Source: Escherichia coli (GTDB taxonomy: Bacteria > Pseudomonadota > Gammaproteobacteria > Enterobacterales > Enterobacteriaceae). From it: a stretch of 64,000 nucleotides of DNA. Made by a program: the position numbers. Position 1 is the first letter of the stretch; the number at the start of each line of letters is the position of its first letter. The stretch is taken from NCBI RefSeq assembly GCF_048403405.1, contig NZ_CP183129.1; one strand, 5' to 3'. Below, piece by piece: positions 61,901 to 64,000 of this stretch.

Positions 61901-64000
61901 GTCTTCGCAACGGAGATAGCCTGCGGGTCGCGATCGATCGCCAGCAAACGCCCCTCTTCGCCAAGCTGCGAGAGGATCAGACGTGAGTGACCACCGCGAC
62001 CAAAAGTCCCATCAATGTAGATGCCATCAGGACGGATATTGAGGCCATTAACGGCTTCATCCAGCAGCACCGTAGTATGTTTATAGTTTTCCATCATTTT
62101 ATAGAGACAAGTCCTGCAGTCGCTCCGATAAGTCTCCGGTAGCCAACTGCTCTGCGTCGATATCTTCCTTGACCTGTTGATGCCAGGTTGTTTCATCCCA
62201 CAGCTCAAACTTGTTGAACTGTCCAACCAGCATCACTTCTTTTGTCAGCCCGGCATGTTGCCGCAGTACTGGCGCGATTAACAATCGACCTGCGCCATCC
62301 ATCTGACATTCGCTGGCATGACCTAACAGTAGGCGCTGCACACGGCGCTCAACCGGGTTCATGCTCGACAGACGCGATAATTTTTGCTCGATAATTTCCC
62401 ATTCAGGCAGGGGGTAAAGCAGCAGGCACGGGTGATGAATGTCAATGGTGCAAACCATTTGACCGGCAGCGTTCTCAAGCAGCTGTTCCCGATAACGGGT
62501 AGGCACTGATAAGCGCCCTTTGCTGTCGAGATTGACTAACGTTGCTCCCCGGAACATGCCAGCCTCACCCCTTATTCCCACTTTGCCCCACAATTTCCCA
62601 CTGAAAGGAGTTTACGGAGCGGAGGAAAAGCTTGTCAAGCCAGTCACAAGGCATACCGAGGTAAAAAACCCGATGTTTACGGCTAATATCAGCGTTGTTT
62701 ATTTTACGTCCAACGTGCGAAGCAAATTAACGTTATGAATAGCTGTAAGAAAAAATCCCTCATCGTCATCACCGTTTTAAAATGACTCACTATTTTCCAC
62801 AGCAAATATAAAGTGTCAGTTTGCGACGCGAGCGGCATTTTAGGACATATCTTCCCCGGTTAACAGTCCCTGTTGCGTCTGTGTGGCGCTTGATGCCAGC
62901 GGGTTTGCGCAAAAGCAAAGAAAAGTGTTTGTTAAATCGGCAATTCATCTCTGCATGTAACAAAATAATGCAAAAACGCGCTATCGATATCACTTAATTA
63001 TTGTGAATTTCAGCTGGTGAGGTAATTAACGGGCAGGTTTAAAAGCATTTATCAATAATAGCCAGGAATAGTCTTATTTACTTTAAGGATATTGATGTCC
63101 ATTCCCGTACTCAACGCGCCAGAGAGAAATTCACCTGGCGCGTATTTTTGTTCGCGGCTTAGCTACGGCTGAGCACGCCGCGGCGATAGAGATTACGTTT
63201 AATGCGCGTTAAACCAGGTTTTGGCTTACGCGGTTCGTCCAGGCTTGCCAGGACAATCTCCAGCACACGCTCTGCGACATCGCGGTGACGTTGAGCCACT
63301 GCCAGCACCGGGCACTGTAAGAAGTCGAGCAGTTCGTTATCGCCAAAGGTGGCAATTGCCAGGTCAGAAGGCAGTTTGCCGTCACGACGTAGCGTGACAT
63401 CCATCACCCCTTGCAACAACGCAAACGACGTTGTGAACAGTGCCTGCGGCATCGGATGCGTTTCCAGCCATTTTTCGAATAACTGGGCAGCCGCCTCTCG
63501 CTCATAGCTGTTGGCATAAAGGAAATGCACTTCGCGCGGATCATCTTTCCAGGCAGTACGGAAACCTTGTTCACGCAGGAAGCTGACAGAAAGCTCCGGC
63601 AGCGCGCCAAGATAAAGTACCGTCTCGGCGGGAAACTTACGTAACTCTTCCGCCAGCATTTCGGCATCATCCTGATCGGCACCAACCACGCTGGTGAAAT
63701 GTTCACGATCGAGGGCGCGGTCCAGCGCGACAATCGGGAACGGGTCGTTAGCCCAGCGTTGATAAAAAGGATGCTCAGGTGGCAACGACGTCGAAACAAT
63801 AATGGCATCAACCTGACGCTGTAAAAGATGCTCGATACAACGCATTTCGTTGTCGGGCTGATCTTCCGAGCAGGCAATCAGCAGTTGATAACCCCTTTGC
63901 CGCGCCTGGCGTTCAAGATAGTTAGCGATGCGGGTATAGCTGGTGTTCTCCAGATCGGGGATCACAAGACCAATAGAACGTGTGCGTCCAGCACGAAGCC

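What the first reader, a model, noticed from the sequence alone, without database searches (positions are those of the whole stretch)
63115..63152. Intrinsic-terminator-like structure facing the opposite way to both neighbours
An 8-bp GC-rich hairpin followed by TATTTTTGTT is a textbook terminator on the plus strand, yet both flanking genes (cra and mraZ) are on the minus strand. On the minus strand the same hairpin follows the cra stop but lacks a U-tract. It may be a bidirectional terminator that also stops antisense or divergent transcription from the complex mraZ promoter region.
Basis: seen in the sequence. Interest (0 to 1): 0.3.

Follow-up and report, generated by a model that had tools for sequence, protein, structure and literature searches.

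The report
cra 3' hairpin with reverse-facing U-tract
The hairpin is real, but it is most likely the ordinary stem-loop that caps the cra mRNA, and it also reads as a textbook terminator on the opposite strand because of an A-run beside it, an arrangement that occurs about as often as chance predicts.

Summary
The window is E. coli. A 9-bp stem (63114-63122 / 63135-63143) with a 12-nt loop lies 15 nt past the cra stop. On the + strand it is followed by AUUUUUGUU; on the cra strand by UUGAGUAC. Both neighbours are on the minus strand and nothing is annotated between them.

Comparison with 80 Enterobacteriaceae species shows a hairpin right after cra in essentially all of them. Its sequence turns over, and it is usually more stable as cra-sense RNA (57 vs 12 species). 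So its primary role is the 3' structure of the cra transcript. About 16 species have a cra-strand U-tract. Most do not, and Escherichia does not.

The reverse-facing U-tract is specific to Escherichia and weakened in at least 8% of E. coli genomes. Among 46 E. coli gene-end hairpins lacking a sense U-tract, only cra's has a reverse one (2.2%), which matches the 2.3% background.

The element would probably stop plus-strand transcription 7-9 nt before cra. I found no convincing plus-strand promoter, gene or published 3' end. "Bidirectional terminator" is not supported by sequence, and insulation against antisense transcription remains possible but unshown. The finding is ordinary and of low interest.

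The parts
63159..63161 (-). cra stop codon (TAA)
   Evidence: ORF list and RefSeq annotation of the identical strain
63144..63158 (-). 15-nt spacer between the cra stop and the hairpin (GCCGCGAACAAAAAT). Its A-run is the complement of the plus-strand U-tract.
   Evidence: Sequence. A run of 4-5 A is kept in all Escherichia species while the flanking bases diverge.
63114..63143 (.). Stem-loop: arms 63114-63122 and 63135-63143 (9 bp, 7 G-C), loop 63123-63134 (12 nt)
   Evidence: dG -15.9 (+ RNA) and -17.8 (- RNA), z about -5. In Escherichia, 7 of 9 pairs are invariant and 1 is compensatory, C-G to U-A.
63143..63152 (+). U-tract of the plus-strand terminator-like reading (TATTTTTGTT). The predicted 3' end at about 63150-63152 is 7-9 nt before the cra ORF.
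   Evidence: T-score 3.22 against 1.87 for the minus-strand tail. A TACTTTTGTT variant is found in at least 438 of 5423 E. coli genomes.
63105..63113 (-). cra-strand tail after the hairpin (TGAGTACGG), with no U-tract
   Evidence: Sequence. GAGTACG is invariant in Escherichia.

Best explanation
The stem-loop is the 3'-end structure of the cra (fruR) mRNA. A hairpin sits within a few to about 57 nt of the cra stop codon in essentially all the Enterobacteriaceae sampled. In the 16 species with a cra-strand U-tract (for example Kosakonia, Atlantibacter, Franconibacter, Cedecea, Phytobacter) it is a canonical cra-sense intrinsic terminator. In most species, including Escherichia, the sense U-tract is absent. 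Inferred: in E. coli, RNA polymerase transcribing cra is not released at the hairpin. Transcripts are ended further downstream, by Rho or by running on, and are trimmed back by 3'-to-5' exonucleases to this stable stem-loop, which then protects the mRNA. This is the pattern described for Rho-dependent E. coli transcripts. Separately, an A-run in the 15-nt spacer between the cra stop and the hairpin means that the opposite (window +) strand reads hairpin + UAUUUUUGUU. Any polymerase coming out of the AT-rich cra-mraZ spacer towards cra would therefore probably terminate at about 63150-63152, just short of the cra ORF. This follows from the sequence rules of intrinsic termination and was not measured. 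Whether the reverse activity is used or selected is not shown, and its frequency among comparable hairpins equals the chance expectation.
For: Shown: the hairpin is real and stable on both strands. A hairpin follows cra in essentially all of the 80 species, although its sequence turns over. An unbiased strand test, taking the best hairpin independently on each strand, finds the cra-sense RNA more stable in 57 species, the antisense in 12 and equal in 11 (Wilcoxon p = 4e-9, species not independent). In E. albertii and Citrobacter amalonaticus one stem position is U.G on the cra strand but C.A on the other; for E. albertii this gives -18.9 against -9.9 kcal/mol. U-tract classes across the 80 species are 10 sense-only, 6 both, 3 antisense-only (two Escherichia plus one other) and 61 neither. 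Base rate in 264 kb of E. coli: of 46 gene-end hairpins without a sense U-tract, 1 (cra itself) has a reverse U-tract, which is 2.2% against a 2.3% background for such T-tracts at intergenic positions. The U-tract is weakened to UACUUUUGUU in at least 438 of 5423 genomes, including ATCC 11775 and Nissle 1917. The published pattern is that Rho-dependent E. coli transcripts end at stable stem-loops not followed by U-rich sequence, which protect them from PNPase and RNase II (PMC6061677 abstract).
Against: No 3'-end data for cra could be read. The Adams et al. Term-seq tables call no 3' end at K-12 8903x-8908x on either strand, but they list only about 900-1200 dominant ends per condition. The C:G ratio downstream on the cra strand is only about 1.25, so there is no clear rut signature. 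The A-run is retained in all four other Escherichia lineages sampled although the bases around it diverge, which could reflect selection for the reverse terminator. The strand-asymmetry statistic treats related species as independent.
Confidence: 0.6

Rival explanations
1. It is a selected one-way insulator. The reverse-facing terminator is maintained in Escherichia to stop spurious or divergent plus-strand transcription from the AT-rich, promoter-dense mraZ upstream region before it runs antisense into cra.
For: The plus-strand anatomy is canonical: 9-10 bp GC-rich stem, then U5GUU. The predicted stop lies 7-9 nt before the cra ORF. The T4-5 run is invariant in E. coli, E. albertii, E. whittamii and two unnamed Escherichia lineages while neighbouring spacer bases differ. 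It is the only strong intergenic hairpin in the window with a U-tract only on the 'wrong' side. Several moderate plus-strand promoter-like sites lie 140-420 nt upstream.
Against: Reverse-only U-tracts occur at the background rate, 1 of 46 against 2.3%. The feature is absent from most other genera, which share the same spacer architecture. The tract is weakened in at least 8% of E. coli genomes. The E. albertii stem has a C.A mismatch on this strand, dropping it to -9.9 kcal/mol. The 12-nt loop is longer than in efficient terminators. No plus-strand 3' end was called in Term-seq.
Confidence: 0.2
2. It is a true bidirectional terminator. The hairpin ends cra transcription as well, either through inefficient U-less termination or through hairpin-induced pausing plus head-on polymerase collisions, as proposed for E. 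coli bidirectional terminators.
For: The hairpin is slightly more stable on the cra strand (-17.8). Published work describes E. coli bidirectional terminators that do not resemble strong intrinsic terminators and act through pausing and collisions (bioRxiv 10.1101/2022.10.23.513370). In some other genera the homologous position carries a two-sided AAAGGC...GCCTTTTTT terminator.
Against: The cra-strand tail UUGAGUAC (UAGAGUAC in K-12) has 2-3 U in 8 and a T-score of 1.87. The described class lies between convergent gene pairs, whereas here both genes are co-oriented and no convergent transcript is known. No cra-strand 3' end was called.
Confidence: 0.1
3. It is the terminator of an unannotated plus-strand gene: a small RNA, or the 25-26-codon ORF at 63092/63096-63172. 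The sRNA SraG likewise lies between rpsO and pnp and is transcribed opposite to both.
For: There is precedent for an sRNA opposite to both neighbours (PMC5029454 abstract). The 60-70 nt upstream of the hairpin on the plus strand are well conserved within Escherichia. An ATG with an AAGGA Shine-Dalgarno sequence opens a frame that stays open in all Escherichia species.
Against: There is no Rfam match and no good plus-strand promoter within 140 nt. The ORF runs through the terminator, so a terminated transcript would lack its stop codon. Its product differs at 9 of 25 residues between E. coli and E. albertii at about 85% DNA identity. The Shine-Dalgarno sequence is AAGCA in K-12. Nothing is annotated here in K-12, which carries many small-protein and sRNA annotations elsewhere.
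Confidence: 0.05

Closest known systems
Protective 3' stem-loops of Rho-dependent E. coli transcripts (Dar & Sorek 2018, PMC6061677)
   Same: A stable stem-loop lies directly after the gene and is not followed by a U-rich tract on the gene's strand. It is single copy and is conserved as a structure rather than as a sequence.
   Different: Rho dependence, a rut site and a steady-state 3' end at this hairpin are not shown for cra. The downstream C:G ratio is only about 1.25.
Canonical intrinsic (Rho-independent) terminator
   Same: On the plus strand there is a GC-rich 9-10 bp stem immediately followed by U5GUU. Its dG is comparable to that of bona fide terminators in the same window (acnB -21.9, aceF -18.2, secA -14.2).
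   Different: No transcription unit is known on that strand, the loop is 12 nt, and no 3' end has been mapped.
Two-sided (A-tract / hairpin / U-tract) terminators, and the bidirectional terminators between convergent genes (Ju et al. 2019, as described in bioRxiv 10.1101/2022.10.23.513370)
   Same: The hairpin is readable on both strands. Other genera carry a two-sided AAAGGCAGC...GCTGCCTTTTTT version after cra.
   Different: Only one side has a U-tract here, and it is the side opposite the gene. The flanking genes are co-oriented, not convergent.
SraG-type sRNA genes transcribed opposite to both neighbours (rpsO-pnp)
   Same: It is a terminator-like element facing against two co-oriented genes.
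   Different: No promoter, transcript or family match has been found here.

Membership tests
Intrinsic terminator (window + strand) | GC-rich stem of at least about 5-8 bp | tested here: met
   9 bp with 7 G-C pairs (10 bp in K-12), dG -15.9 kcal/mol, z -5.6
Intrinsic terminator (window + strand) | Short loop (typically 3-8 nt) | tested here: not met
   The loop is 12 nt, with only weak internal pairs in the MFE structure. It was missed by the stock scan, which allows loops up to 8 nt.
Intrinsic terminator (window + strand) | U-rich tract immediately 3' of the stem | tested here: met
   UAUUUUUGUU, T-score 3.22. Only about 2% of intergenic positions score as high.
Intrinsic terminator (window + strand) | Lies at the end of a transcription unit on the same strand, with an RNA 3' end in vivo | tested here: inconclusive
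   No annotated plus-strand gene, only moderate promoter-like sites, and no 3' end in the Adams et al. tables, which have low sensitivity.
Two-sided / bidirectional terminator | U-tracts (or A-tract plus U-tract) on both sides of the hairpin | tested here: not met
   The cra-strand tail is UUGAGUAC, T-score 1.87, and UAGAGUAC in K-12.
Two-sided / bidirectional terminator | Located between convergent transcription units | tested here: not met
   cra and mraZ are both on the minus strand. The class is described for convergent pairs.
Protective 3' stem-loop of a Rho-terminated mRNA | Stable stem-loop just downstream of the ORF, not followed by U-rich sequence | tested here: met
   It starts 15 nt after the stop, dG -17.8, tail without a U-tract. 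The definition is from the PMC6061677 abstract.
Protective 3' stem-loop of a Rho-terminated mRNA | C-rich / G-poor rut region downstream | tested here: inconclusive
   C/G is 1.25-1.27 in the first 150 nt and 1.0-1.24 up to 300 nt.
Protective 3' stem-loop of a Rho-terminated mRNA | Bicyclomycin-sensitive read-through and a steady-state 3' end at the hairpin base | not testable with these tools
   This needs Term-seq or RNA-seq with and without bicyclomycin. The supplements of the relevant papers are not held.
REP/BIME or other repeated extragenic palindrome | Many copies per genome | tested here: not met
   One place per genome in 5423 E. coli genomes. A genuine REP-like sequence occupies this position only in Citrobacter koseri.
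Known RNA family (Rfam) | Match to a covariance model | tested here: not met
   No match in 62000-64000 up to E = 10, apart from an unrelated weak osmY hit inside mraZ.

The most novel reading that the evidence does not exclude
Escherichia has converted the ancestral cra terminator into a one-way valve. It lets cra-strand polymerases pass or pause, with the hairpin serving only as an mRNA cap, while acting as an efficient intrinsic terminator for plus-strand transcripts that arise in the promoter-dense mraZ upstream region. This would insulate cra from antisense interference, or define the 3' end of an as yet unannotated antisense RNA.
Probability: 0.2. Interest if true: 0.35.

Novelty: new member of a known kind. 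Interest (0 to 1): 0.12.

Why it matters
It matters little for biology at large. It gives cra a plausible 3'-end structure and offers a small caution for annotation: a hairpin with a U-tract on the "wrong" strand next to a gene end need not imply a hidden transcript. In 264 kb of E. coli, such reverse-only U-tracts occur at the background frequency of T-rich tracts, whereas sense U-tracts are about ten-fold enriched. If the reverse activity were shown to be used, it would be a clean natural example of a unidirectional insulator between cra and the division/cell-wall gene cluster's control region.

Tried and rejected
- **Rfam:** scanned 62000-64000 at E up to 10 and found nothing relevant.
- **Published 3'/5'-end data:** only the Adams et al. 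2021 tables were readable, and they have no call near the hairpin. The SMRT-Cappable-seq and TERMITe supplements contain no cra/mraZ rows. Supplements or papers for Dar & Sorek, Rend-seq, APERO, the Nanopore study, the 3'-UTR valves paper, the 3'-seq comparison, Thomason 2015 and Ju 2019 are not held. Full-text searches for 'cra-mraZ' names and for the sequences themselves found nothing.
- **Small plus-strand ORF (63092/63096-63172):** rejected. The terminator lies inside it, and its product diverges at 9 of 25 residues between E. coli and E. albertii.
- **REP element:** rejected, because the hairpin is single copy.
- **First strand-asymmetry test:** it was biased because the segment was chosen on the sense strand. 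I replaced it with a symmetric test.
- **First gene map of the window:** it was wrong because the reference strain has indels relative to the window. I redid it with BLAST.
- **First base-rate classification:** it mis-assigned extended hairpins. The secA-mutT hairpin that looked reverse-only is in fact two-sided. I redid the analysis with strict cores.
- **Conserved sense terminator just upstream of Pmra:** I looked for one that could end cra read-through and found no consistent hairpin.
- **Consensus RNA structure in the conserved upstream blocks:** none was found, with no covariation.

Full report
**Where the window is.** The window is E. coli in the reverse orientation of K-12. It is 100% identical over 641 bp to several RefSeq strains and aligns to MG1655 without indels in the cra-mraZ spacer. 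The conversion is K-12 coordinate = 89,032 + (63,159 - x). cra ends at 63159-63161 (-) and mraZ occupies 62099-62557 (-). No feature is annotated in the 601-bp spacer in K-12 or in the identical strain.

**Observation.** The plus strand at 63114-63152 reads ACGCGCCAG-agagaaattcac-CTGGCGCGT-ATTTTTGTT. The stem is 9 bp with 7 G-C pairs; K-12 gains a tenth pair through a T/A flank. The 30-mer folds at -15.9 kcal/mol as plus-strand RNA and -17.8 as minus-strand RNA. z is about -5.6 and -5.1, and no shuffle folds as well. The 12-nt loop explains why the stock scan missed it. A relaxed scan of the whole window gives 7 hits with dG of -14 or lower against 0.9 +/- 0.8 expected, and this is one of them. 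The minus-strand tail is UUGAGUAC (UAGAGUAC in K-12), with a T-score of 1.87 against 3.22 on the plus side.

**What the hairpin is.** I fetched the cra locus from 80 Enterobacteriaceae species.
- A stem-loop sits a few to about 57 nt after the cra stop in essentially all of them, but its sequence is replaced repeatedly.
- 16 species have a cra-strand U-tract. Kosakonia, Atlantibacter, Franconibacter, Cedecea and Phytobacter carry AAAGGCAGC-n4-6-GCTGCCTTTTTT, a canonical cra-sense and partly two-sided terminator.
- 61 of the 80 species have no U-tract on either side. Only two Escherichia lineages and one other species score as reverse-only.
- When the best hairpin is chosen independently on each strand, the cra-sense RNA is more stable in 57 species, the antisense in 12 and equal in 11 (Wilcoxon p = 4e-9, with the caveat of shared ancestry).
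- The reason is G.U pairs that become A.C on the other strand. E. albertii and C. amalonaticus show this at the same stem position; for E. albertii the energies are -18.9 against -9.9 kcal/mol.
- Within Escherichia, 7 of 9 pairs are invariant and one shows a compensatory C-G to U-A change.

The structure is therefore maintained for the cra transcript. A stable stem-loop right after a gene without a U-tract is the signature reported for the steady-state 3' ends of Rho-dependent E. coli transcripts, where it blocks PNPase and RNase II (PMC6061677). That is my inferred mechanism for the cra strand. The rut evidence is weak (C/G about 1.25), and no cra 3' end could be read from published tables.

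**The reverse-facing U-tract.** On sequence rules the plus-strand reading should terminate. Its stem energy is in the range of the real terminators in this window (acnB -21.9, aceF -18.2, secA -14.2), and the U-tract is good, although the loop is long. The stop would fall at about 63150-63152, 7-9 nt before cra. The T4-5 run is invariant in E. coli, E. albertii, E. whittamii and two unnamed Escherichia lineages, while neighbouring spacer bases change.

Four results argue against selection for this reading.
1. The feature is confined to Escherichia.
2. 438 of 5423 complete E. coli genomes, including the type strain and Nissle 1917, carry UACUUUUGUU.
3. The E. albertii stem is mismatched on this strand.
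4. The base rate is at chance. In 264 kb of E. coli (this window plus four K-12 regions) I analysed 115 gene ends, of which 61 have a strict Watson-Crick core hairpin. Sense U-tracts occur in 15 of the 61 (25%) against a 2.3% background. Among the 46 hairpins without a sense U-tract, only one has a reverse U-tract, and that one is cra itself: 2.2%, equal to the background.

**Is there anything for it to terminate?** Plus-strand promoter-like sites in the spacer are moderate. The best, TTTACG-18-TATTTT, scores 8.6 with a start site near 62712. The 99.9th and 99.99th percentiles of the window are 6.3 and 9.4. There is no Rfam hit. The 25-26-codon plus-strand ORF through the hairpin is not credible. 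The Adams et al. Term-seq tables list no 3' end at K-12 8903x-8908x on either strand, but they hold only about 900-1200 dominant ends per condition. Published bidirectional terminators lie between convergent genes, which is not the case here. SraG shows that an sRNA can face against both neighbours, but nothing supports one here.

**Verdict.** The hairpin is the ordinary, evolutionarily maintained 3' stem-loop of cra. Its plus-strand terminator appearance comes from an adjacent A-run. It is probably competent as a terminator, but it is not shown to be used and it sits at chance frequency. "Bidirectional terminator" is not supported by sequence, and insulation against antisense transcription remains an open minor possibility at about 0.2. 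Novelty is low and interest is 0.12.

**Side observation.** The mraZ-proximal two-thirds of the spacer contains blocks that are almost invariant across genera. They read as tandem promoters rather than RNA structure. This seems more worth a look than the hairpin itself.

Noticed in passing
window 62866-62792 (-), with further blocks at 62755-62716, 62976-62956 and 63080-63065: Blocks in the cra-mraZ spacer are nearly 100% identical across about 30 Enterobacteriaceae genera, where synonymous sites are saturated. Examples are CTGTTA-N18-TAAAAT followed by a GC-rich GCCGCTCGCG, then CTGACA-N16-GAAAAT, and TTTTTTCTTACA..ATATTCATAACGTTAATTTG. They read as tandem sense-strand promoters or regulator sites 200-300 bp upstream of the known mraZ promoter. 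They are unannotated, and RNAalifold finds no covarying structure. A long dcw-cluster leader carrying the sRNA UpsM is known in Rhodobacter (PMC5089854).
   Followed up: partly
window 63114-63086 (-): A promoter-like site abuts the hairpin on the cra/mraZ strand: TTGAGT-N17-TATCCT, PWM score 11.4, above the 99.99th percentile of the window. The -35 second base is polymorphic (T/A/C) among Escherichia, K-12 has TAGAGT/TATGCT, and GAGTACG is invariant in the genus.
   Followed up: partly
L083 2233-3000 (strain 23CRST031, NZ_AP045800.1); equivalent to window 63114-63122: An IS1A copy is inserted in the 5' arm of the hairpin with a 9-bp target duplication, ACGCGCCAG. This leaves an intact hairpin plus U-tract on the cra side and separates it from the mraZ upstream region.
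   Followed up: partly
window 63092-63172 (+): A 25-26-codon ORF (ATG at 63096, AAGGA Shine-Dalgarno) runs through the hairpin and overlaps the cra stop. The frame stays open in all Escherichia species, but the peptide diverges quickly and the terminator lies inside it, so it is judged not to be a gene.
   Followed up: yes
window 41164-41190, 24580-24603, 22805-22827: Two-sided (A-tract/hairpin/U-tract) terminators lie between secA and mutT and between aceF and lpdA (co-oriented pairs), and between yacH and lpdA (a convergent pair). They are useful internal comparators.
   Followed up: partly
window 63123-63134 and 63113: One loop position (63126; A/G/T) and the base just 5' of the stem (63113; A/T/G) each carry three alleles among E. 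coli and Escherichia strains, while the stem is invariant within E. coli.
   Followed up: no
window 62685-62655 (-): GCCGTAAACATCGGG followed by TTTTTT lies about 25 nt upstream of the mraZ promoter -35. The T-run is conserved in Escherichia, Citrobacter, Salmonella and Klebsiella, but the hairpin is weak and is not conserved in Enterobacter, so it is not a convincing terminator.
   Followed up: partly
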